A DNA stretch of 64,000 nucleotides from assembly GCA_047967505.1 (NCBI GenBank), contig CM106538.1, one strand, 5' to 3'. Source of the stretch: Dipteris shenzhenensis (taxonomy: Eukaryota). How positions within the stretch are numbered: the first letter of the stretch is position 1; every line of letters starts with the position of its first letter. Shown piece by piece: positions 9,843-64,000 of this stretch. Under the pieces are notes generated by a model that had not been told where the DNA came from, made no database searches, and was given only the letters and a program-made list of their open reading frames with translations. The translations under genes and the position numbers were made by a program.

Positions 9843-12800
9843 CTACGGTTCAATCTCATCCTCAATGAGATCAACCCTTGCCAAACTATCTACTTCAAAA
9901 TCCAAACAAGTGTTTAGATCTACAAATACATTCAACCCACTACTACTTGTGCTACTCATGTACTCATCGAAATCAGCATCACTAATGGTAGGCTTGTCCT
10001 CATGGGTAATGGCCTCAATATCTGTATCTCCTATCTCATGATCCTCCTCCTCTCTTGTATCACGGTCATCATCACGTCCATGGCCATGATCATCCTCCAT
10101 ACGCTCAATATTAGTAAATGTACTATACATCACTTTGGAATGTGCCATAATAAGTATGACATGCCACCATCTATTATTATCCACCATTGGTTGATAGACA
10201 ACCTAATTCAAATACAAATACAATCATGTTATTTTCCTTGCATTGAAGGTATCAAATATTTAAAAGCAAGTATTTTTATATGTGTGCACAGTACCTGTTC
10301 ACATTGTTACGGTAGTATTAGTGTGTCCTTCTTACTTTGCCAAAACTTTGTGGAGTCAATAGTTACAAAGCCACTTGCATGGAATTTGATTGTTGCATTA
10401 GGGCCTCTTTCCACCATGTTCGTAAACCACTTTACATCCAAAACATACACAAAGAAGCATCGAAAGTCAAGCTTAATAATATCTTAGATTATGCCACAAT
10501 AATCATCCATGGCTCCATTGGCTCCCTCAAAGCTAGCAATGATGCCGCAATCTTGTGTGTTTCTCTTATCATCAATCCGTTGTTTTCGAAAATGCTTGCC
10601 CTCACACCATATAGCATTGAACATAGTGTACTACACCAAGAAAAAATCAATTCAATAAGCAATCTAAATTATTGAAAGCTCCTAACTTATGCATAACATT
10701 CTATATACCGACCTTGCTTATGCATCCCCTAGCATACTCCCATTCTTCCATTGTGATATGCATCCCCTCGTCTTTCTCTGCTTTCTCCATTTCATCAAGT
10801 AGCCAATCCACATGAATATCCTTTGGAAGTGCTCTTAGATACTGAGGGTATGGCATATGAGATCCGTGGTGTGTATGAAAGAGGGCCCTTTCTTCTTGTC
10901 TTCTTGCCTTTGCATCCTTGTATCTTGTCATCCATCTTTTCATCACATCACTATTAAGCATGCAATAGAGGTTGATACTATTATGCAACTCCATGTCTAT
11001 TACTTTGTTGCATCCTTTCCCTTGAGGCACAATAGAGGTCATCCTTAGGTCTTCATCATCTCCATAGTCATGGGAGAGAGCTATCCACCTCAACAAGAAA
11101 CTCAGAAATATATACAAGTGACTCTTGTACTAACCAACCCTCGGCCATGCTACCTTCGGGTCTTGCATTTTGTCTCACGAAGCCCTTCAAGGTCTTCATG
11201 AAGCGCTCGAGGAAGAACAACCATCATGCATGTATAGTACTGCATATAGCAATCTCATCCACCAAATGCACTATAAGATGTAGTTGGCTTGTGAGAATAG
11301 AACATGGAAATGTCTCCTCCACTAAAGAAACCACCTCCACTAACATAACTCGAGCATTCTCAAGCATGGTGGGATCTATTTCCTTTGAGCTCACATACCT
11401 AGAAATGAAAAAGTACACCATATTAGCAATATGAACACCTTGCATGGAGCATTGATATGCATCATATTTTGTATCATGTAAAATACCTCACAAGCTCGCC
11501 CATCTTGTAAATACAATCCTTCATGTCCTTCGATGCACTACAAGAAATGCTAGTAGGTAGTATGAACTGAACCCACGAGGAGGTGGTTGATTAGTTGCTT
11601 ATAATTATTCACTCACAAATTTGAAAGGAAAAAGATATTATGCACATAAAATACTTACTTGGAGCATCTTGTGCCAATCATGAGATTTCAAGCCATATAA
11701 TTGCTCTACACCTCTTTTCTTGCTCTTTGTAAAGGCTCCCTTCAAACACCTCATGCATCCAGTGGGAGTACGAATTGTAGTAATAGTGTGCTTCACCGCC
11801 ACCATCTCTAGCTTTGATAACCTCCATGGTGCACGAGGTAAAAAAACACGCCCATTTGGTCTCTCTTATGGCCAAGCTTCATGCATTCTCCCTGTGGTAC
11901 ATAGATCCTCCCTTATGCCTACGGAATCTCGTGTCCTATTCAAATGCTCCCAAATGGTAAATGCCACATTCTTGAAGATATGCATGGGATCAAGCAGGTG
12001 ATTGATCTTGAGGTGGGACCAATACGGTAAACGATAAAAGATGGAGTATCTAAACAAAAGTTGGTGTTAGCGGGCAATCTTTATTTCCAGCCAATATAGC
12101 ACATAATAGTTACAAACCCTTACCAGCTCATGCCAAGTGGTGGAGGAGTCGTGGAACCATCCCAAATTCTCATCCAATCTCCCACGGTGAGTGATTGTGG
12201 GAGGACTTTATTCCAAGGGGCAACATATCTAGGATGATCAGGTGGGAGAAATCAATGGTAATTCTCATAGATGACCTTATTCAATGCGTCTGCCCGTGAG
12301 GCAACTAGCGAAGGACCACAAACAAGACATGCATGGTAACTCAATGTAGTGAGACCTGAACAATAGACGCAATTAAGAGTTGAAGGTGGGTTTAGGGTGC
12401 CACATCCTTTGCCTATTCATAATTAGAAGTGCAATGCTTAACTGAGCACTTGCCATAGCCTAGGAAGTCATGCATCGTCCACATCAAGACTGCTTTGTAG
12501 TTGAAGTCTCATGACGAGGGAGGCCTGCTCACATCATGCACCTCGATACCTCTCCAAAGTATCTCTAACTCATCAATCAAAGGCTCCAAATAAACATCAG
12601 GATTTTTGACTTTATGTTTCCCTGGAATTAGAAGGGACAGCATGACATGTCCTTTCTTAATAGCCATAGAGGGTGGAAGATTATAATTCACCAATATCAC
12701 TGGCCATACACTGTAAGAGGTGCTTTTGAGACCAAATGGGTTCACACCATCCATACCCAATCCAAGTCTCAAGCTCCTAGGTTCTTCCTTGAAGCTTGGC

Positions 12801-13914
12801 CATATGTCTTCAATATGCTTCCAGGCAGGAGAGTTTGCAGGAGTTCTCCACTTGCCATCGGTTGATCGATGGGAGGAATGCCATGACATGAGCTCTGCAA
12901 TGGATTTGCACTTGAACATATGTTGGATGCAAGGGACTATGGGAAAATGTCGCAAAACCTTACGAGGCACGTCCGAAGTTTTGAGATCTGCTCTATATCT
13001 TGCCTCTCCACAAGTAGGGCACTCTCTTGCATCCTTATGTAGTCCACAAAACAAAATGCAATCATTGATGCATGCATGGATGCACTTGTAATCTAATCCT
13101 CCAAGAGAGGTCACATGTTGCCTTGCCATATCTCTTGAGGTCAGTAATTTATTCTCCCTTGGAAGCATTTTACATAATAGCCTGCACGTGAAGACCATAA
13201 ATGAGGAAAAGCATTCGAGTAATTGACCCACTAGCATAATTCACCATGTTTGCAAAATAGACTTTAAAGCTTACTTGAGTAATGCATTCAAACTTGCATT
13301 GCTTCATCCATAGATGGTTTGCAAGTTTAGTAACTCAAGGGAGGCACGTAGAATAGAGAAAGTACACCTCTCAAATAGTGGAGTCGATGCTGTGGTAAAA
13401 AGATAATCCTGCTCCATGCTATCATCCCTCCCTTCGGATTGATGGACATATAAATCCCGCACCATATCATCAAACACCTCCTCCTCCATGGCTTTATGAG
13501 GTAATGGCAGAGGGCTACTTCACTCCATACATCCGTAACGGTCCCTCCTAAAGATCCCACCTCATATCACCGATGCTTCGCCTCCTCACGGTGAGCATAG
13601 GGCAACATATGCGGGTGTGGCACTACATCCTATATCAAATTAAAATGGGATCATAACTCAAACATATGAATACCCATAGGTATCTCAATCAACCTTAACT
13701 CTTTAACACTTACCATGTTTACGGTCGCATCCCATTCTCCATACTTTGAGATGTGATTGAGTGTAATCCTACATGCACGATACATGTTTCCTGGACATCG
13801 ATCACACATACATTTGATTTTTTGCTCCAACCACATCTCACGATGGTGGATACGGAGGGATTCATCCTCACTGGAGCTAATTGTTGAAGATGAAGACATC
13901 CTACAAACAAACAA
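9843..13914 (-). pseudogene. CACTA transposase TnpD-like (Transposase_21, DUF4218- and DUF4216-like regions), multi-exon, with stops
   Basis: IHACINDCILF..CPTCGEARY, LRHFP, LRLGLGMDGVNPF, SVWPVILVNYNLPP, DVYLEPLIDEL..LW, HDFLGY, LDPMHIFKNV, HLIVHL, FLERFMK.LK.FV..ARPEGSMAEG and acidic C-terminus. In-frame stop at 12509-12511. Confidence 0.92.
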
Positions 13915-19574: not shown

Positions 19575-19742
19575 CTTCACCATAAATAGCTCTCGTTTTG
19601 CAATTTCGTTCGAACCAAATATCTAAAGCATTTCTTGGGACTTGTAATTGATTTTTTTCAACTATAGCATTTGCTACTTACTTTGTTATCGTTATATTTT
19701 TTGTAAGCATCAATTGTTGTTACAATTTCATTTGTTAACACT

Positions 19743-20885
19743 ATGGATGTAGAGCAACTTCTACTAAAGAAGAAATTGATGAAGCATTCATCTTTCATGG
19801 ATAACAATCCTTCCAACACAAATGTACTCAGTTGCATTGTGCAAATTCTTCCTAGTGTAACATATGACCAATTGTTGAGAACATTATTTGAGAGTGTTAT
19901 TTTAGAACCTTTGAATTCTCAAAATCCATGGAACATTTTCCAAACAATATCAAACGAGCCAATCCTAACAATTGGAAAAGTAAAAAATTTGCTTGTAAAC
20001 ACTGCTACCTCCATAGCATTGACTGTAGATGTCCTTAAGCAATTTAATTTGTTATTCGGTACATCTTTCACCTTTCTATCCTACAATGGGAAAAACCTTC
20101 AAGTAAAAGCAAAAGTAGGTTGTGCAAAAAATAAGCCGACAAATTCTCTGTTGTTGGAACAACAAAATCCCACTTGCTCTATTATTCCATTGGTCAAAGT
20201 AGATGCAAAACTTCCCTACCAAATATGGAATGAAGAACACCAACAAAATTTAGAAGACACAGTTTTGCAAAACCCAAGTTTGCCTGCAAAAGATATAGCT
20301 TTATTGTTCCACTCTTCATCTTCAAAACATGCTTACACAATCCAATCTACCTTAACCAAAATATATAAAGTTAGGAAATTTGTTCTTGAACCTATGCATA
20401 CTCCGATGAAGATGAACACACTACAAGAAGAGCTAAACATTCACAAACAACAAACATGCAAGAGAAAAAGAAATGAGAACAAAGCAGAACCACAATATAT
20501 AAAGAAAATACTCGATACTCCTAGTTTCCCATGTACTTGTTGTGGCTCCCTAAAGTTCTCCATGAAAATGAAGAAGCTAAAACAACATATGGCAATATTT
20601 CTCCAAAGCAACAAAACTAACATTCCAAGAACTTGCGTAAGAAGAATGTTATGTTCTCTTTGTTTTAAAGATGTTAAAAAAGGAATAATGCCATTAATGT
20701 GCACAAAGAACCTCACAATGGCCCAAAAGAAAGTTCATACAAGCAAACTCAATGACATGGAGGCACGATTAGTCTCCATTAGAATACCATTTGCTCAAAT
20801 TCGCGAGCTCTCCTATGAAGGGCAATTTGGCTTACATGGATTACAGACCAACAAAACTTCTCTCTACAAAATAACAACCATATGA
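19743..20885 (+). CDS. N-terminal part of a Helitron/Helentron Rep-helicase polyprotein (Cys-rich, DUF6570-like), truncated by deletion
   Basis: 380-aa ORF with FPCTCCGSL, LCSLC and LNDMEARLVSIRIPFAQI...GQFGLHG, a pattern that precedes the Rep domain in Helitron-type proteins. Rep and Pif1-helicase motifs are absent. Confidence 0.6.
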   Translation: MDVEQLLLKKKLMKHSSFMDNNPSNTNVLSCIVQILPSVTYDQLLRTLFESVILEPLNSQNPWNIFQTISNEPILTIGKVKNLLVNTATSIALTVDVLKQFNLLFGTSFTFLSYNGKNLQVKAKVGCAKNKPTNSLLLEQQNPTCSIIPLVKVDAKLPYQIWNEEHQQNLEDTVLQNPSLPAKDIALLFHSSSSKHAYTIQSTLTKIYKVRKFVLEPMHTPMKMNTLQEELNIHKQQTCKRKRNENKAEPQYIKKILDTPSFPCTCCGSLKFSMKMKKLKQHMAIFLQSNKTNIPRTCVRRMLCSLCFKDVKKGIMPLMCTKNLTMAQKKVHTSKLNDMEARLVSIRIPFAQIRELSYEGQFGLHGLQTNKTSLYKITTI

Positions 20886-21502
20886 CTTTACAATCTCTAA
20901 ACACATGAGCACTCAATTCACATTACGAGGACATACTTGAAGAAAAAAGTTTGCTTCATGCAAAAATTTTATGCCTCCAAGAATTGCATATCAAAGACAA
21001 ACAAACAATCTCTTTGCCAAACTTCACATGTTTGCAAAACAACAAAGGAATTGGTATTGCAACATGTTTCAAAAGTAACTTCACATTGCAAACCCAAGAA
21101 TACATAACCATCAAACAAACTAAATGCTTGTTAATAATATTCACAACAAAAAAACAATCACAATTCGCAATAATTAACGTTTACAAGTCACCTTCCTCAC
21201 CGCAATCAACACTAATATCTTCATTGCAAACAACTCTCGCTCAATTTAATATAAAAACACCAACGTTCATCTTAGGTGACTTCAACATTGATTATAATTC
21301 CAAAAATATAAATACAACAAAACTTTATCAATTCCTCCATAAACAAAACTTTCACCAACTCATAAACGACCCAACAACTATACATGGGTCCACAATTGAC
21401 CATATCTGGACAAACATTAAAAAAACAACAATTCTAAGCAGAACAAACTACATATATTGGTCCGACCATTCCCTTGTTTACACACCTTTGAACATTGACT
21501 AG
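20886..21502 (+). CDS. Apurinic/apyrimidinic (EEP-family) endonuclease domain, C-terminus of the Helentron polyprotein (frameshifted)
   Basis: ILCLQE, INVYKSP, ILGDFNID, STIDHIW and WSDH motifs. The stop codon overlaps the right sub-TIR, and no RT domain follows. Confidence 0.85.
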
Positions 21503-24960: not shown

Positions 24961-25694
24961 AAATCACTCTCTCAAAAAAACATGGGAGATTACAATTTAA
25001 GAAATGCACTACAATTTAGAGACAAGGTGACTCTCATCAACTACAAAAATAAAAGTGCACAAAAGTCTACAACACTTAAGACTATAATAACTAAAGCACT
25101 TAGAGGAGCCCTCATCTCCTTAATCATCACCCTTGGAGGATCCCTTGTCTCCTACATCACACTTGCCCTTGCCTCTTTCTCACTATCACATGGGGTAAGC
25201 TGCATGTACCATGAACAAATATGTTTCTTTGGTAAAGTAATGTTTCAGAAGTTAAAAGGAGCTATTTTAGACATTAAGATGTGAGACTTGCCTGAGCTAT
25301 TGCAATTTGTGCTCTCTCTGACTCAATCTTGTCAAAAGAGCCTAGGCATTATGTTGATAAGCATATTTATACTCGTTTGGGGTAGTTTGAGGTGCATCCT
25401 ATGCCAACATTCCATTATTGACCACTTCATCAATGCTAGTGTCTTGGTCCAGGTGCATGAGTTCTCCTCACCCAATAGATCAAATTTTATAGAGTCATTT
25501 AGATAAAGATATAAGGTCAAATCCAAGCCAATGGTCTATGCCATGCCATCATCCAGCATGATAATCTTTCTCTCCCACCTAGATTCACACATGCGGTTGA
25601 CAATTTTCCAATGAAAAAACTGGCACTACCTCAATGTGAGATTGATCGATGGGCTCAATTTGTGTAGCCCTTTGAGATATAAGCTCATCTAAAT

Positions 25695-26002
25695 CCACAC
25701 ACACACACACACACATACAAACACACACACGTGCATGCACACATGCAAAAATGCACATGCATGCACATGCACATGCACACACATATGCACACCAGCGCAC
25801 ACATGCACACACATGTGCATGTGCATGCACACATACATGCACATGCATACATGTGTGTACACACATGTAAAATCACACACATGTACACACGCATGCATGT
25901 GCATGTGTGCAAGTGTGTGCATGCATGCTCACACACACGCACACAGACACACATGCATACATGTGCATGCATGCACGTGTGCACACACATGCATGCACGC
26001 GT

Positions 26003-26037
<35 letters not shown>

Positions 26038-26050
26038 CACACGCATGCAC
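25695..26050. repeat. Degenerate (CA/TG)n alternating purine-pyrimidine microsatellite
   Basis: Directly visible cacacacatgcatgcac... tract; source of many spurious H/M/C/V-rich ORFs. Confidence 0.95.
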
Positions 26051-29000
26051 TGCTCACCTCTTCCCATATGCACCTCGGGGCTTGGCATTCTGTGAGTAAA
26101 GTTCTATTCAATTTTGTGAGTTTTGTGAGGCTTTTCTATGTGACATTTATAGCTGATAGTTAGCTATAAACCTTGAATATAATAGAGCTAGTGGCTCTCG
26201 TTTCATTTTAAACTAAGCATTGTGTTTTTTTTTTCCAAAATTTTAGTCTATGTGAACTTATTAATTATTACAATTTATCTTCTAATGATACTACATGTTT
26301 CATTCAATGTTTGATAATTGATTGCATTGACTTTGTTATGTGGAAGGTTTATAGCTAGCCACTAGGGAAACACATTGAGTTTGTCGGAGGTTTTTAATTT
26401 CAAAGTAAGAATGGGATTTGTGTCAGTTTCAAAATTTTAGTGTGAGTGGAGTTACAAATTTTGGGCATTTCATAACAATATTGAAAGCTTGCTTAGTGTT
26501 TTGCTAATTGCACAGCCTCCAACATACTTAATAGTTTAAGAAAAACAAAGTATTCTTGCACTTAGTGATACTATATGGAAATAATTGAACAATATCCATG
26601 TGTATCCCTATGGTTCATCTTCAAAATCATTATCCTCTAATACAATTTCATCTACAAACGCATAGTGACTTTTCTTCTTTCTCTTCATTTGGCATGCATC
26701 ATAGATTTCCTCATGCCTTAGTTTCCCTTTGCCTCTACATAACACACAAAATTTTTAGAAATAGTCAAAATCTTGAAGTTTTCAATGCCATGGAGAATGC
26801 TTGCCAATAAAAGGTCTAGAATGCCATATTTTTACCCACCACAAGTCCGTTATTACCAGTCCTTCACCATAGTCCAAAATAAAAAATGCCAAACATTGTT
26901 ACATAATGGTAATAAAAACCACAACTTAAATGAACTACAAGGACCATTCAAGACAAAATTTTCTTACCCTCTTCAAAGTAATTAAATTTATGTCCTTCCA
27001 TATGGGATCCCATGCTTGGATAATCTCATCTGAAACAAAGTATGGGTACCCATTTTGAACCAACAAAAGAAATGATAAAGGTGGGTCTCTCCTCCAAGTA
27101 TCCCTCCTCTCAAAATGACTTCTTCAATCTCCTTCATTGCACATTTCCAACTTGCTTGACACTTTGATGAAGACATATTCTACATAAAGGAACAAGTGGT
27201 GATGGAGTGTCCCTCTTTACCTTCAACCTATTCATTGTCTCAGCAAACAACTCCTCTACCTTTTTTTTTTCAATTTTTTGTCTCATCTTCATTCTTCCCC
27301 CCAGAAATGTCCTCATCTTCATTTAGATACTCATCTTCCTCTCTTTTAGAGTGTCCATCTTTTCATATCATCATCCTCCTATCAATATATTTCTGGTTTA
27401 GGTTATTTTCAATGGAAAGATGAAATAAATAATCTTTAAAGTAAATCTCAACCACTTACCTCATCCCCTCCTCATCCCATAGGAGGATGAGCAATTTCTA
27501 TGTCTCTCTTTAATTGAGCATGTCCATCTAAGGTAGAGGCTGAACCATCTATCAAAAAATCACTTTGTCGAACCAAACTTTATGCCTTATGTGAGTATTT
27601 TGTACTAATGGCTTGCTTACATTACAACCAAGTAATCACCATTCACTATAGCAATCGTTAGTCATGATAATCATTCATCTAGTTTGTCCACTTTGCAACC
27701 AAACGTTGATTGAGACTGAGTAACAAGGACCACAAATTGTTGTTGTCATATCGCATTCCAAATTTCATACATTTGCATCATGCTATTTTTTGTCCCATAG
27801 GTTGTGTTCATAACTAAAAATACATTACAAATCTCACTATAACTTTCTTTCTAGTATAGTATTTAGCTTAAACTATAAGGAATTTCTAGGACTTCAAAAA
27901 TTACCTGCCTATTGTTTGTTGTACAATAGAAAATCTCTTGAATGTTGTTTTAGAATCTAGATTTTGAACTCAAAGTTTTAAATTTTCTTGGTCCTATGGA
28001 GACACATAAATGCTTTTAAAAATTAATAAACACTAGCATGACACACACTACAAGTAGAGCCCTAACTTCCCCCATAAATAGCTTGAAAGGAGGAACAAAT
28101 AAAGCAAGTTTAATGGCATAACAACGTGCTATTAAACTTACTTTTTTCATTTCTATTGTTCAATCGGAACTAAACTAAGAAGCACATAAAATGGCAAGTG
28201 GAAGCATTGAAAGATATTACTACTCAACAACCACTTATCTAAAGATCCTAGAACATTAAGCATGAGATGAGGAAAAAAGTCACCACAATGCAATAAGGCC
28301 TTGGAGACAAGCTAGCTTCCTCTAGATGAAGGAATTTGAAAAAGACAAACAAAGACTCCAACCAATTAATGTATTGCACATATAATCTAGTAGACAAGCC
28401 TTGTATGCCCAAGGCATATAGAGCTTCGATAATAAAACAAAACACTTAAGGATGGCCCTTTATACCTTTCCTGTTCTAACAAGAGGAGACACTAGAAGTA
28501 TTAAAATTAGGAACAAGAAAAGCAAGTTTGATGGCAAGTTGGCGTGTTATCAAACTTACTTTTTGAAATCCACTTGATAGAATTGTATTTCATTCAATGG
28601 CAAAACAACTCCTTTGCATAAACAATCCTCCTCTAAAGCATCAAGGATGCAATATGAAAATCTAAAGAAGTGGAAAAGAGAGAGAGGTTTCAAGCAAGAG
28701 GCAGTGGAAGGGGTTGGGAAAAAAACTATAGAAGAGATTGTAGGTGCAATAAATGTAGCCCTTTGAGGGAAGACAATAGCTTTAATCGGCTATTTTTGCA
28801 ACAACATAGCCTCAAAAAGATAGGTGATACATTTAAAAGGATGTCCAAGCATTAAACACTATTCTTAGATGATAGTACAATAGAAAATGCAACCCTAAAG
28901 GTCAGCATAACAGAAAACCAATCCCTATAGATTGTTAATACCATGACAAAGTTCTAAACAATGAAAGACAAAGATTTTCATAGATAGAAGATGCATAGGA

Positions 29001-48600: not shown

Positions 48601-49360
48601 AGAGACTGCTTTGGAGTCCCAAACTCTGATACGTATCGGAGAACCTTCTGTAATTTGCAGCAACAGAACCATTCCAAGATTTCTCTCAATTGGCTCCAAT
48701 CAAGTCCCAAGCTGAGCATACCCATGCAGATCGTTTCCGAGATCATTTTTATCGATTCAGACAAGACGACCTGCACCAGAAAGAGCGCTGTCGCATCTCT
48801 TTATGTTTATCAGCTCCTGTATACTATCCTTATCTCCATAAGTCCTTTCGCTGAACTCGAGAAAGGTCGAGGTGCAGTGCTTAACGAGAAGTTAAAAAGT
48901 TAAAATTTGCTTGTAATGCATTGGGAAAAGCCCTTCAAAAGACGCTGACGTGGCAAGACCGGAGGAGGTGCTTGAAGACAAGCAAGGTGGCAAAATGGCC
49001 ACTTGTGCTTTTTGTAAAAAGATTATACAAAATTCTCTTGCGCAATCTTTGCTCCACAAATCTTATCCTCCCATCTCATCATGTGACTAAAGCAAAGGTG
49101 AAACCTGAATGATGGATTTTACTTGAAACCACACAATAGCCCTCCTCTAATTAGTTTTCTCCTTTATGACAAGAACCTTGGCATTGATATTACGAGTAGC
49201 ATGACCCGTCTACGATGGGTTAGAGACCCGCTCCACTGGGTCTCAAGGTTGGGATCCTAGGGTTTTTTTAATTTCAAGGAATAAATGATTTTAAAGGGAT
49301 TTTCAAATTGAGTACGTTGCATCACTTTTATTTAGAAAAAATGTTTTCGATAGCATTGTA

Positions 49361-49445
<85 letters not shown>

Positions 49446-49538
49446 TGAAAGTTTACAAATCTCAACAAAGTTTTGGATCAAGTCCAATGAGGCTCTAATA
49501 ATGCCTTTGTTTGGAAAAAATATATTTTATACCAATAC

Positions 49539-49615
<77 letters not shown>

Positions 49616-49920
49616 ATGTGTGTGTGTGTGTGTGTGTGTGGAAACCACCTACTATATGCATATGTATTCATGTTTATACGCACACATATACATTTGCATA
49701 TCACACGTGTGTGCATGCTCAAGCGCATGTATGTGCATATACATGTATGCTCATGTACATGTGTATGTCTATATGTCACATGCATATGTGTGTTTGCCTA
49801 TGTGTGCACATAGGTCATGCTGTGTCTACACATTGTACATGTGTGTTGATTCTTTTGGCATGTTTGAGTGTGTACATCTCTATCTACATGCACACACATA
49901 GGACACACATTCACAATATA
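49361..49920. repeat. Compound microsatellites (CT)n, (CT)n(AT)n(GT)n and degenerate RY tract
   Basis: Directly visible: 49361-49441 and 49542-49640, followed by degenerate tgtgcata repeats. Confidence 0.95.
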
Positions 49921-50799
49921 TGTGATAAATGGTAGGAATGCACTTTGCAAAACCTTGCTGAATGGGTGTCTTTGCAGTTTGCACATCTAGGTTGTATGGA
50001 TGGCAAAGAAAAAAACATCCAGACATTTATCAAGCAAGCCTTATGTATTCAAGCTTCTTAAGGTTTGATATTTTATGGACTTCATAGTCAAGAAAGCTCA
50101 CATATAAAAAGTGTAATATAATAGTACAAAGTGTAAAGCAAATGCAATGCTCCACAAATCGTATTATGGTGCTACTTAGAAAATGTCATCATAAGACTAT
50201 TCTCTCCCCTAATTCTTCCTTTGGAGAAGCAACAATAATAACAACTGTGAGGCAATCACAGGCCTCACTCCTCCCTTCACCATGGAGTCTAAGCCCTATG
50301 CTGATTAATTCCTCTCTGCACCCTCTCCTTGGCACCTCATCATCATGATCAATGGCATCACTGGTAGATTTGTTCCCTCCCCCAATCTCTCCATTGCCTA
50401 GCCTTCTTAGTTCTCAAAATTAACATGAGTATCAAAATTTTGAAGTAAATCTATATTTATTAATAAAGGAAAGGTTGGAATAGAAATGAGCGTGATGTAT
50501 CTATTTGTGCATGTGCCTCCTAGTCAATGTGTGCCCCACCTCCCCCCTTTTTACGGCCCCTCTTGTAGTTGGAGTGTGTTTGTCTTCCCTCTCTCTTATA
50601 TACCCCCCCTCCTGTGTATTTGTGTGTGTGGGCCCCTCTCGATTCCTACACATGTGCTTCCCCCCCTAGATCCCCTAACTCTCCTCTTTGTTTTCTCTCT
50701 CTCTCCTCCCCCTACACAAAAATTAAAACACTAAATATTAAAATATAGAGAAGATTGATAGAGAATATCAATCTTTACTCTCTAAATATGAAATATTAA

Positions 50800-54951: not shown

Positions 54952-57900
54952 AATTACTACTTATTGCTTGCTCCTCTTGAGATATTATTGTAAAAAAATT
55001 CTAAATGGTTACAGAAAATAAGAGAGAATATAGAGAAAGTGCACAACTAAACAAGAAATGAGCAATATAGAAATAGGAAAGAGCAAGAAATGAGCAAGAT
55101 GGAAATAGAAAAGAGCAAGCAAGGGTGAGAGAAAGGAAGTGCTTTCTCCATGATTATGAGAGAAGAAAGAAAGTACTTTTGCAACAAGATGAGAAATGAA
55201 ATGCACAACTATACATTGATGAAATGGAAGCAAAAAGTTGAGAACAGGAAGAGAAGAAGATGATGACAAAAAATAAGTGTTTTTGCCAAGATCTGAAAGA
55301 TTTGAAATAAAGTGATTAGGGAAGGGGCTGTAGTTATTATATTCTCCTCATGACACATTTAATATAATTGATAAAGTGGAGTGAAATATTTAAAATACAT
55401 TTTTGGAGATAGGATTGATATAATCATTATATTCTCATAATGAGCTATTTCATATAATTTAAAAAATCATGAGACATTCATATAATATTTAAAAAACATA
55501 TCAGCACATGATCCTTGTGCATTCGGGGAATTTTCTCAATTACAAATCAACATGAAATAAACATTACAAGCACATGCTCCTCATGCGTTGAGACATTTTT
55601 TAGTATAACTACAACACAACATCATCATGAGATATTTCATAAAATTAAAAAATATCACATGAAAATATAGTTGTAATTCATATTGAATGTGTTTTTCTTA
55701 CACAAAAATTTGGCCATTTAGGCCATTTGCATGCTTCAAAACTTGTATAATTTATCAATGAAGAATGTTGGGTAGACTCATCTAATGCTTCTTTGGAGGC
55801 AGTGATGCTTTGTGTGTAGATTGTATCTTTGACACTTTATTTAAGCCTTTCTTTTAGCCTCTAATATGTGTGAACTACATCTTTGTTGCTTCATTCATGC
55901 CTACAATAGAGAAAAACCATGTGAAGTCTTTGGGAAATGCCTCTTTGATGGCTTCTACTATTTGTTGATTAGCATACCTTGCCCTGAATATATCATAAGA
56001 TGTAAAGGTGATGGAGAAGGCACACCACGCTTGTCCTCTAGATCAGTGACTTGTAGTGGTATAGTTGAAAGTAAAGAAAAGCACCATCATTCTTCCAATT
56101 TCCTAAGGATACACACCAAAAACTCCATGCCCCACTTCTCATGGCTAGCTAACACTCAAACAATGAGGTGTGGTGAAGAGTAGCCCTAAAAAATATTCAT
56201 CATGAAAAGTCCCTAAAAAGAAAGTAGAAGCTACTATGCCATACTTGGAGTGATGGAGCTACAACAACAAAAGGAACAGGGACCCTCAAATGACCGTCAA
56301 ATGCATTGGTTTACAATCTCCAATGCACAAATTACACTAGAAGTAAGAGAACAAAGTACTTGTGCATGAATGATGAAAACCATGTGATCTAGTAGCAAGT
56401 AGAGGTCAATCAAGATGTCAAGAAGAAGGAATAAATTGGCATGCATGGCCATGCACGCCAATAAGGCATCCATGCATACACCTCAATTCATTGTTACCCA
56501 CTAGAATAATACCTTCAACTTACTCATGACCTCATGGACTCATGATGTCATGCACTTTGAGGAAGGGTGGGTCAAACATTGATGTGGGGGGATCCACATG
56601 CCATATGCACATAAGACAAATAGGACTCCCTGATATCTATCCTTAGGCATTGACCATTGTCCCCACAATTTGGATGCTTTGCATCCAATTGATTCCAGCT
56701 CCTCACGGTCAGACTCTCTGTGATTAGAGGATTAATCACTAAAGTAATTTGCAAATAAATTCCATCATACGCATGGATTGGTGTTGTATCTCTTAGCTTG
56801 GTTGGCACCAATCGTTTGATATGTAAGGCCTAAAAGATAAAGATTGTAATTGTTCTTGATTGTAAAAGCTATTCTACTTTACTATATCCCACCTCATGTC
56901 TACATTTATGTGCTTAGTAAGTATTTGATTTTCTTCTCATCTACATTGTAGAGGGAGTCCTACAAGAGGGGTATTGGTACTTAATGCACTCGAGGGGATC
57001 ACTATGTATAAACCCTATAGTGTGTTCAAGGCCTATTTATAAAACCCCTTATCTGTGAATTATTCATTAATGAAATGCACCCTTTTCCTATTCAATCTGT
57101 AAATGTTTTTCTAAAGTCCTTTTTACAACACCCTTTTGTCTATGAAAATGTGAGAAAAAATGAAGTTAACATTACAAAAAATTTGGGCTAAAAAAGGGAC
57201 CTATAAGGGAGCCCTTGGGCTGGTGACATGGAAGAATAAGATGAATAAAACCCAATAGAATATTGGCTGGTGGAGGGCAATAGAATATTGGAAGTGACAT
57301 GACTTCTCTATTTCCTTATTCAATGTCCCAAACAATGATGTGGAGCACCCACTTGCTACCTCAACTCTCCCATCACATTGTTTACTATATAACCAAACTG
57401 AGAAACCTAGTTTCTCAACCAAACTTGTACCATTTGACCCGAAACCAAATCCTCCCATTTAACTACCACACTCCTTTCATTCTCTCTCATTCCTCTTACT
57501 TCCCCCTCATTTCTAAGCACCATTTTGAATTTTTATTTGCTCCAGCCCTCTTTTTAAATTTCCTACTGGCTCTTGAGCAGGAAGCTTCTTTCTCTATTCT
57601 CCCTCTCATGGGATGGAATCTCATGCCAAAATCTCGTCACTTCTCTTCTCTACCTACATTTCCCTCCCATTTCACTCTCATTCTTTTAAAACTTTCAAGA
57701 TTTTTGAATGAGATTCAACTTACCTTCTCCTTTCTCTATTTTGGGCACTTCTCCTTCAAATCTCGCCACTTCCTCTCTCATTTGAGATTCTCCCACGATC
57801 TCAAGTGATTTCATTTAGGAAGATAAGGCAATCAATGTTCTGAGCAAGCCATGAATGATGCAAGGTGTTTGGAGCTTAGAAGGAGCTACTGGACGAGATT

Positions 57901-58134
57901 CTTTAAGAAAGGATCAAAGAAGATTGACTTTCAGGAATTGCAATTGCTAATGCATGAAAATCAATCTTTCTTTTACCCATCTCTCAATACTAGTCACTTT
58001 CCCTGTTGCAATCTCTAAGGGTGCATGATTTCAAACCATTTGTAAAGGTTTGGGGTCCATCCAGACAACTTGTATGGAGGTTGAGGTGAGATAATCTTTG
58101 GAACAATGCAACACAGTGATTATGATGAGATTTG

Positions 58135-58900
58135 TTTGTTAATGATGTAACTTTGAAGAAACAGTTAGTTCATAGTTCATTTTGTGTAGTTGTGTTGTTT
58201 TGTTTTATTACATGGTTTGAAAATGTTGAAAATTTTGTTTGTTTTGTAAGAAATTCCATGAGAAATGAGTCTTTTCAACTCTTACTATCAATAGTTTTCT
58301 ATAGAATATTGCTTAAAATAGATTTCAAGATGTTCGGGAGCATATAATTTGTTTAAATTAAAGCAAGAACCATCAACTTCACCATTCCTAGAACACATTT
58401 GGGACCACTGGGAGGGACAAGTTTGCTAACATTTTTCTTTCATAAAACCTTGCTCCAAGAATCAGGTACTGTTCATTCATGTAGTTTTAGAATGTTTTTA
58501 GTTTTCAACTCAAATCAGGGTCTATCAAAGCAACTTGCATGGAGATTCAGGTGAGAAAACCTTTAGAATAATGCAAGACAATGAAAATAATGAGATTTTA
58601 TGATGCAATTTTGAAGAAGCAGTTAATTTGTAGTTTGTTTTGGTAATTGTGCTGTTTTCTTTTAATACATGATTTGAAGAGGAAGAAAGATTTGTTTGTT
58701 TTAAAAGATACACTCTTACTATTGAGATTTTTTTAAGAAGATGGTTTGGAAGCATATAATTAGTTTTGGAGAAAAATCCATCAACTTCAGCAACCTGGAT
58801 TACAAGAGGGACCTTTGAGGAGGACAAGTTTGATCACGTTTTTTCTTCCAAGATCCCTGTGAGGTATTGTTCATTCCCATAGTTTAACAGTGTTTGATGA
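58135..58900. repeat. Diverged tandem duplication (two copies starting ~460 bp apart) in the putative first intron of the transposase
   Basis: ~58135-58500 and ~58600-58900 share gaagaa.cagtta.tt, tacatg.tttga, tttgtttgtttt, ctcttactat, gcatataatt, catcaacttca, ggacaagtttg and ggta.tgttcattc in the same order. Confidence 0.7.
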
Positions 58901-59061: not shown

Positions 59062-61866
59062 GTGGAAAGTGCATGAAATCATGTAAACCACTCAGAATTT
59101 AAAGACGGTTGATATCCATTTTCAAATAGATGTAGAGAATGCACCATTTTTAAAGAGGAATGAATCCTCCTTAGTAAGTGAAAGTGATTTAGTAGCTCTT
59201 TGAAATCAAGGAAAAACACATATGGATTTGTGTTTAGAAGGGAAAATATATCCAATAGATTCACAAACTTGTCAGACTCCTCAATTCTATGGATTGACTA
59301 GCTTAATAAAGCTCCTATGTAAGGGTAAGAATGGTTTGTTAAGATATTGTTGAAGTTTGATTGGTCATGGAGCAAGTAGCCTTCACAGCCAATCTCAATC
59401 TTTGCTTAATGAAAGAGACAAAAGGATCGCAATGTTGGAGGCTTGGAATCAACGTTTGATATCATCTATGCAATCTAAAAGTGTTAAAATTTTGCATATG
59501 ATGGCATAGAGAAGAAAAATCAAGAATTATAGGTAAAGGTTTAAACATTAGATGCTCAATTGGGAGAGAGCACTATAGATGCAATTCACTTATAGATGCA
59601 AAACACAGTTCTGAAGGATGAGATCAAAAAGTTAGAAAAAACATTATCATTCATGAAGGATACTCCAATGGGTCCAAGACTACATAAGAGGAAATTGCAT
59701 CCAATGGATGAAATATCCAAGAAAACTGATCACTCGAAGTGTCGAGTGAGAGCTTGTAGGACTGTTTCAGAACTCATGTCTATCCATGATGAGCACTATG
59801 GCGCTATGGGTGAAGTGTTTATGAAAAAAATGTTGGAGTCTGCTGTTATACAACATCCAAAATTCAAAAGTCTAAAATCAAAGATAACATCTGAGTCAAT
59901 GAGCAAAGTTGAGCATTTCAATGCAACTAGTGCACAAGGAGTTTGTGATATTGTAGGGATAAGTACGTGGGTATATCGGCTCATATTTAAGAGCTTAAAG
60001 ACAACATGTCTTTCTGTGGGAGGAAAAGTTAAAGCCCCGCTTCCTAAACTAATTGATGTTGATAAGGCCAGGCATGCACTCAATTTGGGCATACTTGATT
60101 TAGTCGGTGAGCCCCAGCATGTATGTAGTACACTAACTTTGAAAACAAAGGCTAGAGAGTTTAAAGAATTGGAATTGACAGTCAAAAATAACTTTGTGAT
60201 GAATGTTCAAAGAGTTTTGCAAGCCATGGTGAAGTTTTACAATATGCCTATGGAGGAATGCAATAGTACTCTAAAGATTGTACTAAAGCTTGATGAAAGT
60301 GAGGTGGTCAAAGGTCAAAAATTAAAACGAGTTAGTTTGACAATGATCAATAGAATACTGGACCTTGAAGTTGAGCTTGATGATGCAAGACAGTTCAATG
60401 TGCAATCAGAATAGGAGATTTAGTGGTTGGCTGCCTTTGAGGTATGATGGAAATTTGAATTTTAATGTAATAATGTAAAAAGACTTAGAATATTTGAGGA
60501 ATATTTTGAAATAACATGTGAGTTTTTTTTTGCAGGTGCTGAAAGAGTCACATTCAATTTTGAAGTGGTTTTTTTACCAAACCGATATCCCAAGTGTGAT
60601 CAAAGGTCATAACAATGGTGAGCTACTTGAAGTTGAGGGCTATGGATCCTACCGTGTAGAATGGCATCTAGATGCTGACCTCAAGACTATTAAATGTATG
60701 TTTAATGTGGGACATGGAGCAAATACAAGCCATCCTTATCCACTATGCATGCAAATGAGAGTACCTGCAAAGGGTGGTAAAAAGAATCAAAAGCAATGGG
60801 CCTTTGAACTTGCAGAGATAGATCAAACTAAGGCATCGGATACCGATGCTCTAGGGAAATATCCATCATAGAGCCCAATTCTTGAAATTCCTCTTGAGCG
60901 AGTACACGTTTATGCGCTTCATGCTATTGTGAGAATAATTGAAAAGTTGATGCATCTCTGTACATCATCGATGCATATAACTTGAAGCCCTAACAAGAGA
61001 GTGAAAGGATGATTGCAAGAATTGAAAAGGTTCTTTCAAATATGGGATTACACTCTAGGCAAGTAAAGATTACAAAAGATGAGAAAAGATGTGGAAAAAT
61101 AGGCAATGTTCCTTCTAATCCAAGCTTTGGTGGTGTCAAGGCTTTAAAATTCCTTTCTTCAAAGAAGAAGAATGACAAGCTCAAATGTGCTAATGAGTTT
61201 GATGCATGGAGAAAGTTACACAATGCCTATTGTGAATGAGGGGGGAAGGGACAAAAAAGATTGGAAAAGGCATGAGCGTGGTTAGCTCTTGATAGCTTGG
61301 TACCTTTACTACAAAAGAAAAGATTCGAAGATGATGATGCATAGTGTTTCATCAATGATGTGAATGACTTTAGCCGGAATATGGAGATAGCTTGGGGAAA
61401 GAATCATTTCACACAATACATGGTAATCTCTAACTTGGACATTGAGATGTGCATATTGAATGGCCCTATATTTACTAAATTGTTTTTCTATTTGGCAGCA
61501 CATTTTAGATGCTCATGCACTATACATGGCATGGAAAGATCGCATTGGCAAGCGCATTGTGCATATAATAGAGTAACCCAACATGGGGGTGGTAGAACTA
61601 AGTCAAGCCCAATGGTTCAATTGGTTCAATGGGGGTACAGGCATATCAAAATTAGAGCAGCCGCAACACTAGCATTCAAAGAGTCCTTAGTGTCCCATGT
61701 AGTGCAAGATGTTAACACGAAACGTCGAAGAAGAATATACAACTCATCAAATGCAAGATAGAATGATGTAAGGTGGCGAGCAACCTGTCATAGACAAGGG
61801 TGCATATGGGTGGAGACACATGAAAATGATGGTGTAGACTCTTCCAATGTGCATGCCCATGCATAA
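59062..61866 (+). pseudogene. RAG1-core/Transib-like DDE transposase, intron-containing, inactivated by stops and frameshifts (possible upstream exon 57851-58085)
   Basis: Ordered motifs: LKIVLKLDES (D at 60292); intron 60442-60535; VEWHLDADLK (D at 60677); GHGANTSHPYPLC (decayed CxxC); VHVYALHAIVRI; FTQYM|HILDAH across intron 61423-61498; GMERSH (E at 61534). These parallel RAG1 VKESCDG, GYDEK, GSVYICTLC, IDALH, TNYFHKTLAH and EGNESGNK. Confidence 0.75.
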
Positions 61867-62048
61867 GTTTTAGAATCTCCTTGTAATTTTAGTAATGTGA
61901 TTTGCAGTAAAGCCAATGTATAATGGCCATGAGCATAGTACAAATTAGAAATTTTGAGTTATTGGATGTTAATTATAAGTATTTAGCTCAAGGTTGCACC
62001 AATTTTACTTCTTTTAGAGTTTTTATTAAAACAAGCATTTTTAAAAAT

Positions 62049-62081
62049 TAGGGTTTTGGGCCCTATATAAAAGAATGGGCC
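62049..62081 (+). promoter_or_regulatory. Compact plant promoter: telo-box, site II, TATA box, site II
   Basis: TAGGGTTT (62049-62056), TGGGCC (62057-62062), TATATAAAA (62064-62072), TGGGCC (62076-62081), then a pyrimidine-rich leader to the ATG at 62204. Confidence 0.55.
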
Positions 62082-62203
62082 CTCATTTTCATTTCATTGT
62101 TTAAAGAGCTCTCTAGTCCCACACCACCTCCCACTTGCCCCTGACATTTCCACCCTATATTTTGCACCCTCACCCTTTCTCTCGCACACTCTCTCCATCC
62201 CCC

Positions 62204-62951
62204 ATGGCCAGGCGCAAGATCAAGGCACCATAAAGACTGGCACAACCAGACCCACCTCTAGACTCAAAGACAAAGAATGATAGCCTCCCCCCCTCTCCCC
62301 CGATGATCCCTGTTGAAGGGAGAAACTGCCAATCCGAAAGCCAGACAGGGAGCAAGGAGTAAGCCCACAGACAGAGGGGCAGAGGAAGGCACAAGAGGAT
62401 CATTATGCAGAGGCTGATGACTCAGAGAGCACAGAGGAGGAGCATGAGGAAGAGGAACAACGAAGGACAGAGCAAAGGAATAAGGCAAGAACAGACAATT
62501 AGGGTCCACGCCAATGGGGGATAGGACACCAAGCTCTAGATCCATGGCAAAGAGGCCCTCAACATCTAGGAAGAGGCCCTCCACATCAAGGGTAAAGAGG
62601 CCCTCCTCCAGTGAGGTGATACAGATTCAAGCTAGGGACAGTGGCACTTTGGGAGATCAGAAAATTTCAAAAGTCCATCGATCTACTCATCTTGATTGTG
62701 AGCTTCGCAAGGGTGGTACGGTCATGTAGAACCTCAATAATAGCTCAACCTCTCGATTTTATAGGTGCGGAGTTATGGAGGCTCCCTAGCGTATTTCTAG
62801 AGATGCCTTACTTACCATGCAGCATGCAACTAAGGTCTACCTAGTAGACCTCATGGATGACACCCAGCTAGCTACCATCCATAGGAAAACGATCGTGGTG
62901 ACCGCAAAAGACATGTAGTGTATTGTATGCTCCACCTTGGGTGATAGTTAG
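62204..62951 (+). pseudogene. Divergent histone H3-family (CENH3-like) gene with a long N-terminal tail, pseudogenised
   Basis: Starts MARRKIKAP*RLA. The histone fold reads R*YRFKLGTVALWEIRKFQKSIDLLILIVSFARV (62614-62715) and, after a possible intron (62716-62764) and a frameshift, RISRDALLTMQHATKVYLVDLMDDTQLATIHRKTIVVTAKDM (62790-62915). This is colinear with H3 [68 protein letters not shown]. Confidence 0.85.
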
Positions 62952-63065
62952 ATTCATATGCTCTGCCTATGGGCATCTGTCTTGTATCAGCCTCTTTTCA
63001 ATATAATAAAATGTCTATTATCTTTGTATGTGCAATCTCAAATTTATTTTCATTGTATTTGTAAT

Positions 63066-64000
63066 TGTTGGGGTAAAGGGCAGTGTGCCCACCCACTTGT
63101 ACAGTTGCCATGTATACTCATATATATATGATAGAGGAATAAGCTGGAGTAGCTTTTGCTCCACCACTTTTGGTGTCTCCTTATTCCTTTGTGTGTGCTC
63201 TCCTCTCCCACAACTGGTATCAGAGCAGGTCATGGTGTTCGGTCTGCAGGGAGCTTCGCGAGAGCTTGTGGTGTGTGCGAATCGAGCATTGAAGGAGCTT
63301 TGGATTAATGTTTCTCGTGGAGAAGATGGGACAGCCATAGCTATGTTGATCTGCTGATCTGAGCTCCGGGAGCTCGAGGAGAAGAGCCTGAGGAGAGAGT
63401 TCAATGCAGCCATCGAGGGAGCCCAGGCTGTTGAGGCACCCATGAGCGTGTGTTGCAAGACACTGTTGTAGAGCCGTGAGTAGGAGTGGTACCTTGTTAT
63501 GCCTAGTGGCTCTATTCTTGTTCTACAGAGGGTTAGACATATACCAGGACTTGCTACGAGCAAGATCAGTACTGGACAGTTGGTTGAGGTAGGTTATCAT
63601 GTCTCTTTGGGTGATCATGCATGGAAAATTGCTAGAGGCAATCTGGTTATGGCTAGGGGATCACGGGTTGGATTCTCTTATGCATTGCATGTATCAGGTG
63701 TCCAGGATAAGATGCTTATGATTAGTAAGCAGCCATCAGCTAGTTTATGGTATGCCAGACTTGGACATATGTCTACTGCAGGTATGGAAGCCCTTACAAC
63801 ATTGAGATACATTCCTGTTATGGATGTCTCTCAAATTTTATGTCATGATTGTGATGATGGTCAGCAATTAGGATCCTCCTTTGTGAGGAAGATAGTCAGT
63901 GAGAGATATCTTGAGCCATTGCAGTTGGTTCATAGTGCAGTTTGTGGGCCTATGCCTACCGTTTCACTGGGTGGCGCCTCTTACTTTGTGACATTTATTG
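63066..64000 (+). mobile_element. Ty1/copia retrotransposon 5' part: short LTR (63066-63212), PBS, deleted gag, GAG-pre-integrase and integrase start; runs off the window
   Basis: TG...CA LTR, TGGTATCAGAGC PBS at 63215-63226, then VRHIPGL...IS.GQL, LWYARLGHMS and LQLVHSAVCGPMPTVSLGGASYFVTFI. Confidence 0.9.

What the first reader, a model, noticed from the sequence alone, without database searches (positions are those of the whole stretch)
62204..62951. Atypical H3 variant with ~140-aa tail: neither canonical H3 nor clear CENH3
The reconstructed tail is MARRKIKAP(Q)RLA, a Pro-rich stretch, an acidic patch (ADDSESTEEEHEEEE) and three RGP(P/Q) repeats in frame with the fold (62551-62610). It lacks the K9, K27 and K36 contexts (ARKS, GVKKP), so it could not carry standard silencing marks. 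CENH3-like traits: long divergent tail, loss of the Q in FQRL (SFARV), replacement of F in RFQ, and a possible intron before VR. Against: T in DT is kept and loop 1 length is ambiguous. An unmethylatable H3 on a transposon would be a plausible anti-silencing device (inference).
Basis: partly seen in the sequence, partly recalled or inferred. Interest (0 to 1): 0.8.

Follow-up and report, generated by a model that had tools for sequence, protein, structure and literature searches.

The report
Dead copy of unnamed H3 variant
This is a broken, non-functional copy of a histone H3 variant from a previously unnamed, centromeric-H3-like family in a plant genome; the locus itself is ordinary, but the intact family is worth a closer look.

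Summary
The H3-like sequence is real. Two pieces in different frames match Pfam Histone and PDB H3/CENP-A chains. It is a pseudogene: reading from ATG 62204 to 62951 crosses two frame changes and eight of the nine in-frame stops listed.

It is not an orphan. It is colinear with about 10 clusters of unnamed 155-170-aa proteins, 59 sequences in all. Tail, fold, a 24-residue loop 1 and a C-terminal extension all line up. In a tree it joins this family (86/87), apart from canonical H3 and from angiosperm CENH3.

The "~140-aa tail" is not ancestral. About 300 nt (62324-62625), holding the acidic patch and the repeats, have no counterpart in the family.

The copy looks neutrally decayed. It keeps 36 of 64 family-invariant residues, its tree branch is 1.6 against a median of 0.13, and CpG o/e is 0.27.

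Variant contigs from one sequencing run suggest that the unit is multi-copy. Transposon carriage and an anti-silencing role are not shown.

The parts
62050..62073 (+). Promoter-like stretch: AGGGTTTT, a GGGCCC motif (a second GGGCCC follows at about 62077-62082) and TATATAAAAG (62064-62073), about 130 nt upstream of the ATG
   Evidence: Read directly. Calling it a promoter is inference; the motif names are recalled. Variant contigs of run X1 cover 62029-62230, so this stretch belongs to the repeated unit.
62204..62323 (+). N-terminal tail part that matches the family tail; TAA stop at 62231
   Evidence: tblastn of P0046 gives 14 of 32 identical, E 0.003. Colinear in the alignments. Stop listed.
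62324..62625 (+). Extra segment of about 300 nt with no counterpart in the family: the acidic patch, then 2.6 copies of a 21-22-nt unit (62549-62606)
   Evidence: Gap against all family members. A+G is 67%, and the length is 2 mod 3, so the tail and the fold share a frame without it. Tandem repeat. A run X1 contig covers 62417-62605 with 14 differences in 189 nt.
62626..62721 (+). Alpha-N and alpha-1 of the H3 fold (FKLGTVAL ... SFARVVR)
   Evidence: PF00125 profile positions 31-64. 27 of 41 identical to P0046. PDB Cnp1 and H3 hits.
62722..62723 (+). Frame change: 4 nt missing relative to the family's R-E-V-M
   Evidence: Alignment read against the DNA.
62724..62915 (+). Long loop 1, alpha-2 and alpha-3 in the third frame, with TAG stops at 62727 and 62787
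   Evidence: PF00125 profile positions 74-115, E 1.2e-6. The loop motif SSTSRFYR matches the family. Stops.
62916..62951 (+). Decayed remnant of the family's C-terminal extension; TAG stops at 62916 and 62949
   Evidence: Alignment to the family C-terminus. Stops.
63005..63010 (+). AATAAA, a possible polyadenylation signal
   Evidence: Read. Function is inferred.
63066..64000 (+). Flanking Ty1/copia fragment, not part of the gene: putative short LTR, primer-binding site TGGTATCAGAGC at 63215-63226, gag-pre-integrase ORF 63484-63999
   Evidence: Pfam PF13976 at 1.8e-7. The primer-binding site is read and its meaning is recalled. The LTR limits are inferred because the other LTR lies outside the window.

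Best explanation
The locus is one decayed, non-functional copy of an intronless gene for a lineage-specific histone H3 variant.

The living relatives are unnamed 155-170-aa proteins in public assemblies. They share these features:
- a short Pro/acidic tail;
- an H3 fold with CENH3-type substitutions;
- a 24-residue loop 1;
- a 13-residue C-terminal extension.

The window copy, carrying its own promoter-like 5' region, appears to belong to a dispersed multi-copy unit. After it lost function it gained a ~300-nt purine-rich segment in the tail, a 4-nt deletion after alpha-1 and many stops. It was then methylated and mutated like the repeats around it.

Shown: the H3 fold, membership of the family, the disablements and the decay. 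Inferred: the order of events, the copy number, and that the intact family members assemble with H4 into specialised (possibly centromeric) nucleosomes.
For: - Fold.
- Family link: P0046 shares the tail, the LGTVAL and KSIDLLI motifs and the loop motif.
- Family size: the P0046 search gave 10 clusters at E 8.9e-44 to 6.4e-31, and the next hit was at 4.3e-17. They hold 59 member sequences, only 1 of them named ("histone H3/H4").
- Colinear alignment with 37-48% identity.
- Tree of 54 rows: the window plus 11 family rows form one side of a branch at 86/87.
- Disablements.
- Decay: 36 of 64 family-invariant columns are kept. The end branch is 1.6 against a median of 0.13. CpG o/e is 0.27.
- Intact family fold: the AF2 model of P0156 has helices at 54-65, 76-89, 110-137 and 145-154 (mean pLDDT 69). 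Its Foldseek top hits are nucleosomal H3 at probability 1.00.
- Multi-copy: 11 contigs of one small run (17,770 records) lie on 60000-64000, and 8 are listed. Four overlapping variants cover 62029-62230 and one covers 62417-62605, mostly 90-99% alike.
- Broken relatives exist: 6 ORFs of 85-86 aa starting at the same internal Met, plus ORFs of 57 and 82 aa.
Against: - No second copy lies in the 64-kb window.
- The copy-number hint rests on one coded run of unknown library type. Contig depth is not copy number.
- The window row sits outside the 11 family rows on a very long branch, so its exact position is unsure. It could be a separate, older paralogue rather than a decayed member.
- The organisms that carry the family are unknown, and I could not see their DNA. 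Intronless, multi-copy status for the family is therefore inferred from ORF lengths, contig sizes and variant counts.
- The first searches with the window's own read-through found no close relative. The word-based search gave 0 of 45 candidates. The exhaustive search put P0046 only at E 7e-5.
Confidence: 0.75

Rival explanations
1. It is a processed pseudogene (retrocopy) of the host's single-copy, intron-bearing CENH3 gene. On this reading the unnamed family is simply the CENH3 of a poorly annotated plant clade.
For: - The copy is intronless and dead.
- The family shows CENH3-type traits: a divergent tail, a long loop 1, A in place of the alpha-1 Q, W in place of the F of RFQ, and G in place of T107.
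- The family's length of about 168 aa is typical of CENH3. Named plant CENH3s in the same searches are 144-169 aa.
Against: - The repeated part seen in run X1 includes the TATA/promoter-like stretch upstream of any transcript start (62029 onward). A retrocopy would not carry that.
- No poly(A) run follows the AATAAA.
- Intact 168-aa ORFs lie on contigs of up to 6.9 kb, and there are many near-identical variants and broken ORFs.
- The family does not join the angiosperm CENH3 clade.
- No named protein from any annotated plant fell in the family.
Confidence: 0.12
2. The H3 variant is cargo of a transposon and, in its intact copies, acts as an anti-silencing histone that cannot carry K9/K27 marks. 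This copy would be a dead member of that mobile family.
For: - Multi-copy hints.
- The unit has its own promoter-like region and an intronless ORF.
- No K9/K27/K36 motif contexts.
- ORFs 1.3-2.6 kb upstream (59596-60868) have faint language-model likeness to Plavaka, Transposase_21 and RAG1-type transposases (score 0.93-0.96, but recognition 2067 is below the tool's 2300 mark).
- Precedent in fungi: hAT transposons that captured and amplified histone H3 (PMC6710886, abstract read).
Against: - No terminal repeats or target duplication were found. The only inverted pair near the unit is 25 nt at 76%.
- The upstream ORFs have no Pfam hit and no credible PDB relative: the only hits are designed SAKe repeat proteins with no matched stretch and one antibody chain at E 0.88. 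They do not match 120 CACTA proteins.
- The upstream ORF seen beside a family member (P0286, P0287) is absent from the window, so no shared cargo context is visible.
- Lack of K9/K27 contexts is usual for CENH3-like histones (recalled).
- This copy is CpG-depleted like silenced DNA.
Confidence: 0.1
3. It is a live gene read by unusual splicing, frameshifting or stop read-through.
For: One stop (TAG at 62500) is CAG in a related contig.
Against: - Eight stops in three frames and a 4-nt gap inside the fold.
- 28 of 64 family-invariant residues are replaced.
- No GT..AG pair restores the frame (my reading).
Confidence: 0.02

Closest known systems
Plant CENH3 (centromeric histone H3; named examples met here: P0189 Solanum, P0248 Olea, P0265 Allium, P0112 Asimina)
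   Same: Divergent N-tail without the K9/K27/K36 contexts. LLIP-type alpha-N/alpha-1 junction in the family. The alpha-1 Q is replaced by A. W or I replaces the F of RFQ. Loop 1 is lengthened. Length is about 168 aa.
   Different: The family forms its own group outside the angiosperm CENH3 clade, which has 91/91 support. Loop 1 has 24 residues against about 10 in P0058 and P0173. There is a 13-residue C-terminal extension. The family seems intronless and multi-copy. The window copy keeps T at the DT position. Centromere location is untested.
Canonical H3.1/H3.3
   Same: The same fold. The PGTVAL-type alpha-N and the AIHAKRVT region are recognisable.
   Different: Only 38-56% identity in the fold pieces to canonical H3. 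The tail motifs are absent. Loop 1 is 15 residues longer than the 9 of canonical H3 (P0001). It is separated from the canonical H3 clade (97/88) in the tree.
Transposon-amplified histone H3 of Dothideomycete fungi (hAT transduplication; PMC6710886, abstract read)
   Same: An H3-derived sequence present in many copies, most of them inactivated.
   Different: In the fungi a canonical H3 was captured by a defined hAT element and the copies were killed by RIP. Here the source is a divergent variant, the host is a plant, no carrier element is defined, and some family members are intact.

Membership tests
Histone H3 family (Pfam PF00125, H3 type) | Histone fold with H3-type alpha-N, alpha-1, alpha-2 and alpha-3 in order | tested here: met
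   Two pieces cover profile positions 31-64 and 74-115. The PDB best hits are H3/CENP-A chains. Alpha-3 is cut by a stop at 62916.
Histone H3 family (Pfam PF00125, H3 type) | An open reading frame able to give a protein | tested here: not met
   Two frame changes and eight stops lie between 62204 and 62951.
Unnamed 155-170-aa H3-variant family (P0154-P0163, P0046, P0168) | Colinear tail, 24-residue loop 1 with the S-S-T-x-R-F-Y/H-R-type motif, and the C-terminal extension | tested here: met
   The tree groups the window with the 11 family rows at 86/87. Identity is only 37-48%.
CENH3 / CENP-A | Divergent N-tail; loop 1 longer than in H3; the alpha-1 Q replaced (criteria recalled from Malik and Henikoff's work, not read here) | tested here: met
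   SFARVV in the window and PFAR in the family; a 24-residue loop against 9 in canonical H3.
CENH3 / CENP-A | T107 of H3 replaced (recalled criterion) | tested here: not met
   The window reads DDTQL with T kept. The family has G there.
CENH3 / CENP-A | Groups with the CENH3 proteins of related organisms | tested here: inconclusive
   It is not inside the angiosperm CENH3 clade, but the deep forks are unresolved with 101 columns, and no fern or gymnosperm CENH3 was available to include.
CENH3 / CENP-A | Localises to centromeres and is needed for kinetochore assembly | not testable with these tools
   Needs cytology or ChIP.
Transposon cargo gene (transduplicated or captured host gene) | Lies between defined element ends (TIRs or LTRs plus a target-site duplication), with copies sharing those ends | tested here: inconclusive
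   No convincing ends in the window. The right side is cut by a copia insertion and by the window's end. No host genome is held. Multi-copy hints only.
Processed pseudogene (LINE-mediated retrocopy) | No promoter carried along; a poly(A) tail; flanking target duplications | tested here: not met
   The repeated unit starts upstream of the TATA. No A-run follows the AATAAA.

The most novel reading that the evidence does not exclude
The unnamed 155-170-aa family is a mobile or transposon-amplified, intronless CENH3-like histone gene of land plants. It travels with its own promoter, exists in many copies per genome (some still intact and conserved), and the window holds one dead copy. That would be the first transposon-borne H3 variant described in plants, with possible roles in the element's own chromatin or in centromere targeting.
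Probability: 0.2. Interest if true: 0.8.

Novelty: new member of a known kind. Interest (0 to 1): 0.4.

Why it matters
The locus itself is a pseudogene and changes nothing. Its value is as a pointer to a sizeable family of H3 variants: at least 59 distinct sequences in public assemblies, only one of them named, and that name is generic. The family has CENH3 hallmarks, an unusually long loop 1 and a C-terminal extension.

If this family is the centromeric histone of a poorly annotated plant clade, it fills a gap in CENH3 surveys. If it is multi-copy and mobile, it would extend transposon capture of histone H3, known so far from fungi, to plants and to a variant histone.

Tried and rejected
**No whole genome or earlier findings**
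- No whole genome is held for the window.

**Searches that found no family member**
- Word-based protein search with the 175-aa read-through: 45 candidates, none scored.
- Metagenome contig scans with the 74-aa ORF and with a 28-nt promoter pattern: no relative.
- Viral contig scans with A1 and with P0156: none.
- Genome contig scan with P0156: none.
- Genome contig scan with P0154: 11 loci, all ordinary H3-like at 36-51% identity apart from one 18-residue match at 94%, on prokaryote-labelled contigs. None is a family member.

**Sequencing runs**
- One DNA holder with a small share of the query's words, and no RNA holder listed.

**RNA features**
- Rfam and tRNA scans of the window: nothing.

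**Upstream ORFs 59596-60868**
- No Pfam family. At E up to 10 there are only FliD_C (0.037) and Pox_A_type_inc (0.55), which I take as chance.
- The PDB hits are designed repeat proteins with no matched stretch, taken as spurious.
- The Atlas gave nothing for the 272-aa ORF.
- 120 CACTA proteins match only 3500-5039 and 10289-13489, not this region.

**ORF upstream of a family member (P0286)**
- It reminded me of an ABC-transporter exon, but it has no Pfam hit better than E 0.23 and no PDB hit. It is absent from the window. I dropped the idea.

**Other points**
- Inverted pair 55537-55561 / 63043-63067 (25 nt, 76%): taken as chance.
- The bacterial promoter/terminator scan is irrelevant to a plant gene.

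**Literature**
- Searches turned up no plant transposon-borne histone H3 and no printed match to three family motifs. Only search listings were seen, apart from the papers named in the full report.
- Supplementary files were not opened. They may hold CENH3 alignments that bear on whether the family is already known.

Full report
**1. What is at the coordinates**

The stretch 62204-62951 on the + strand holds a recognisable histone H3 gene, but it is in ruins.

- The first frame starts with ATG at 62204 and reads MARRKIKAP. It then meets TAA at 62231, runs through a Pro-rich stretch to ...MIPVEGR at 62323, and stops again at 62360.
- A second frame, open from 62317, carries the acidic patch. 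It has TAG at 62500, then three RGP units with TAA at 62593 and TGA at 62617. It continues with FKLGTVALWEIRKFQKSIDLLILIVSFARVVR (62626-62721).
- A third frame, from 62724, reads the rest: a long loop, then RISRDALLTMQHATKVYLVDLMDDTQLATIHRKTIVVTAKDM. It has TAG at 62727, 62787, 62916 and 62949.

Two independent pieces match Pfam Histone PF00125. Piece 62790-62915 scores E 1.2e-6 on profile positions 74-115. Piece 62620-62841 scores E 1.7e-4 on profile positions 31-64. The tail piece 62317-62499 matches nothing.

Against solved structures, the best hits in both searches are H3 or CENP-A chains. The best are fission-yeast Cnp1 at 1.7e-7 and an H3 at 3.8e-6.

No ARKS, KKP or GVK-type motif occurs in any forward frame of 62100-63000. 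blastn and tblastx of 62000-63000 against the whole window find no second copy.

The "reconstruction", however, crosses two frame changes and eight stops.

**2. The host and the surroundings**

The window is repeat-rich land-plant DNA. A CACTA transposase ORF (12512-13240, minus strand; Pfam Transposase_21, 2.5e-39) has its best named relatives in the fern Adiantum nelumboides, at 58-61% identity. A liverwort follows at 51-52% and angiosperms at 40-51%.

Directly downstream of the H3 unit lies a Ty1/copia fragment. Its primer-binding site TGGTATCAGAGC is at 63215-63226, and its gag-pre-integrase ORF is at 63484-63999.

Upstream, ORFs at 59596-60411 and 60515-60868 have no Pfam family. They show only a faint language-model likeness to Plavaka, Transposase_21 and RAG1-type transposases, and recognition is below the tool's mark. 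They are not matched by 120 CACTA proteins.

The unit has a TATA-like stretch at 62064-62073 with GGGCCC motifs, and an AATAAA at 63005-63010. Calling these a promoter and a poly(A) signal is inference.

**3. It belongs to a family that nobody has named**

The word-based search with a 175-aa read-through found nothing: 45 candidates, none scored. The exhaustive search gave 194 proteins at E up to 0.001, mostly ordinary H3.

One of these, P0046 (127 aa), stood out for several shared odd traits:
- L in place of the P of PGTVAL;
- KSIDLLI;
- a tail that aligns with 62235-62323 (14 of 32 identical);
- a loop motif, SSTARFHR, against the window's SSTSRFYR.

Searching with P0046 gave 4187 proteins at E up to 0.001 among 5506 candidates. 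Ten clusters score E 8.9e-44 to 6.4e-31 (P0154-P0163). There is then a gap to 4.3e-17, where ordinary plant H3 and CENH3 begin.

These ten clusters hold 59 sequences from ENA, Logan, NCBI and JGI assemblies, on contigs of 518 to 11,103 nt. Only one is named, and only as "histone H3/H4".

The full-length members are 155-170 aa and fall into two subgroups, 60-68% alike between them.

The window gene is colinear with them from the start codon to the C-terminal extension, at 37-48% identity. In a tree of 54 rows and 101 columns:
- the window row and the 11 family rows form one side of a branch (86/87);
- the family alone has 87/90 support;
- named angiosperm CENH3s sit in a separate clade (91/91);
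- canonical H3 sits in another (97/88).

The deep forks are unresolved, and the window's branch is very long.

**4.

*The tail.* Family tails run to about 35-55 residues and pass directly from a Pro-rich stretch into RRWRPGTVAL. In the window, the matching ...MIPVEGR and FKLGTVAL are separated by about 300 nt (62324-62625). These have no counterpart in any family member.
- The segment is 67% purine. It holds the acidic patch and 2.6 copies of a 21-22-nt unit.
- Its length is 2 mod 3, so without it the tail and the fold share one frame. That is a 1-in-3 coincidence, so only weak support.
- The RGP reading of the repeats holds two stops. The neighbouring frame reads them without a stop.
- The "~140-aa tail" is therefore most simply an insertion or expansion in this lineage, not a native feature.

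*Loop 1.* The 68 nt between VVR and RIS, plus a 4-nt gap right after VVR, give the family's 24 residues. Canonical H3 has 9 (P0001), and two plant CENH3-type proteins have about 10 (P0058, P0173). The long loop is real and shared.

*The "possible intron before VR".* That stretch lies inside the extra segment, and I found no GT..AG pair that restores the frame.

*CENH3-like residues.* The family has A for the alpha-1 Q, W for the F of RFQ and G for T107. The window has A, I and T. The criteria themselves are recalled, not read here.

**5. State of this copy**

- At the 64 columns that are invariant in nine full-length family members, the window keeps 36 and has replaced 28. These include W to F, P to L, W to I and R to T.
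- Its end branch is 1.6 changes per column against a median of 0.13.
- CpG observed/expected is 0.27 in the unit, against 0.37 for the window as a whole.

Together with the stops and the frame changes, this is what neutral decay of a methylated, silent sequence looks like.

**6. The intact family**

An AlphaFold2 model of P0156, built with a 66-row alignment, has mean pLDDT 69. It shows alpha-N, alpha-1, a short helix in loop 1, alpha-2 and alpha-3. Its Foldseek top hits are nucleosomal H3 chains (probability 1.00, TM about 0.6 on the target). That fits an H3-type fold; pairing with H4 is inferred and was not tested here.

Among 38 full-length members of one subgroup, the share of variable columns is 68% in the tail, 44% in alpha-N to alpha-1, 61% in loop 1, 47% in alpha-2 to alpha-3 and 38% in the C-terminal extension. 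This contrast is only modest.

Eleven further sequences of that subgroup are not full-length:
- five ORFs of 85-86 aa that start at the same internal Met (P0168 in the other subgroup is a sixth);
- one ORF of 57 aa and one of 82 aa;
- four sequences that come from the gene's upstream flank or read through from it (P0286, P0287, P0290, P0291).

Several of the seven short gene ORFs look like broken copies. Many slightly different intact ORFs plus broken ones, on contigs of genomic size and absent from annotated proteomes, fit a multi-copy intronless gene better than a single-copy CENH3.

**7. Copy number of the window's unit**

One public run holds parts of the stretch. It is coded X1, is DNA by guess, and has 17,770 contig records in 1.95 Mb. 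Eleven contigs lie on 60000-64000, and eight are listed:
- three lie on 61120-61285;
- four overlapping ones, with different substitutions, lie on 62029-62230;
- one lies on 62417-62605, with 14 differences in 189 nt.

By likeness, 2, 4, 5 and 0 of the eleven fall in the classes 99% or more, 95-99%, 90-95% and under 90%.

Several variant contigs over the same 100 nt in one small run point to several copies per genome. They also include the promoter-like stretch, which a LINE-made retrocopy would lack. One of the differences turns the TAG at 62500 into CAG.

This is suggestive, not proof. The library type is unknown, and contig depth is not copy number.

**8. Reading**

*Most likely (0.75).* This is a dead member of a dispersed, intronless H3-variant gene family with CENH3-like features.

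*Rivals.*
- A retrocopy of a single-copy host CENH3 (0.12).
- A live gene read by recoding or unusual splicing (0.02).

No element ends were found. The right flank is cut by the copia insertion and by the window's end.

**9. Literature**

Transposon capture and amplification of histone H3 is known in Dothideomycete fungi (PMC6710886; abstract and outline read).

In a survey of chromatin genes fused to transposons (bioRxiv 10.1101/2021.11.30.470311), the 11 passages found by term search concern readers, remodellers and viral histones, not histones on transposons.

A CENH3 survey across plant groups (PMC11687628; the 12 passages shown of 14 places) has no occurrence of "pseudogene" or "intronless".

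Searches for a plant case, and for three family motifs, found nothing. Only search listings were seen for these, and supplements were not opened.

**10. Verdict**

The long tail is not native, this copy is dead, and neither transposon carriage nor anti-silencing is shown. The unnamed family is the part worth following up.

Noticed in passing
window 3500-5039 (+) and 10289-13489 (-): Two fragments of CACTA (TNP2-like) transposons: Transposase_21 at 12512-13240 and DUF4218 at 3988-4386. The best named relatives are in a fern (Adiantum nelumboides, 58-61%), which places the window in land plants.
   Followed up: partly
window 19707-21499 (+): LINE-like pair: a 392-aa ORF with no Pfam family, followed by an endonuclease/exonuclease/phosphatase ORF (PF14529, 1.4e-10).
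   Followed up: no
window 63066-64000 (+): Ty1/copia fragment next to the H3 unit. Only about 270 nt lie between the primer-binding site (63215-63226) and the gag-pre-integrase region, so most of gag seems to be deleted. A related contig in run X1 diverges upstream of 63491.
   Followed up: partly
window 59596-60411 and 60515-60868 (+): Two long ORFs in different frames with no Pfam family. The second has a faint language-model likeness to Plavaka, Transposase_21 and RAG1-type transposases. It may be an uncharacterised transposase remnant upstream of the H3 unit.
   Followed up: partly
window 58053-58497 and 58518-58895: Old tandem duplication of about 450 nt (66-77% identity).
   Followed up: no
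window 25588-26160 and 49354-49932: Long dinucleotide microsatellite tracts (CA/TG, TC and TA types), seen as repetitive ORF translations.
   Followed up: no
P0286, P0290, P0291 and the N-terminal 109 residues of P0287: A conserved ORF-like stretch immediately upstream of one subgroup of the H3-variant family, present in at least four variants. The shared sequence of those copies therefore extends at least 330 nt upstream of the gene. It has no Pfam or PDB relative and is not present in the window.
   Followed up: partly
L001-L011 (genome contigs): Ordinary eukaryote-type H3 genes on contigs filed under bacterial genomes and MAGs. Several are short, low-coverage contigs, so they look like eukaryotic contamination of those assemblies.
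   Followed up: no
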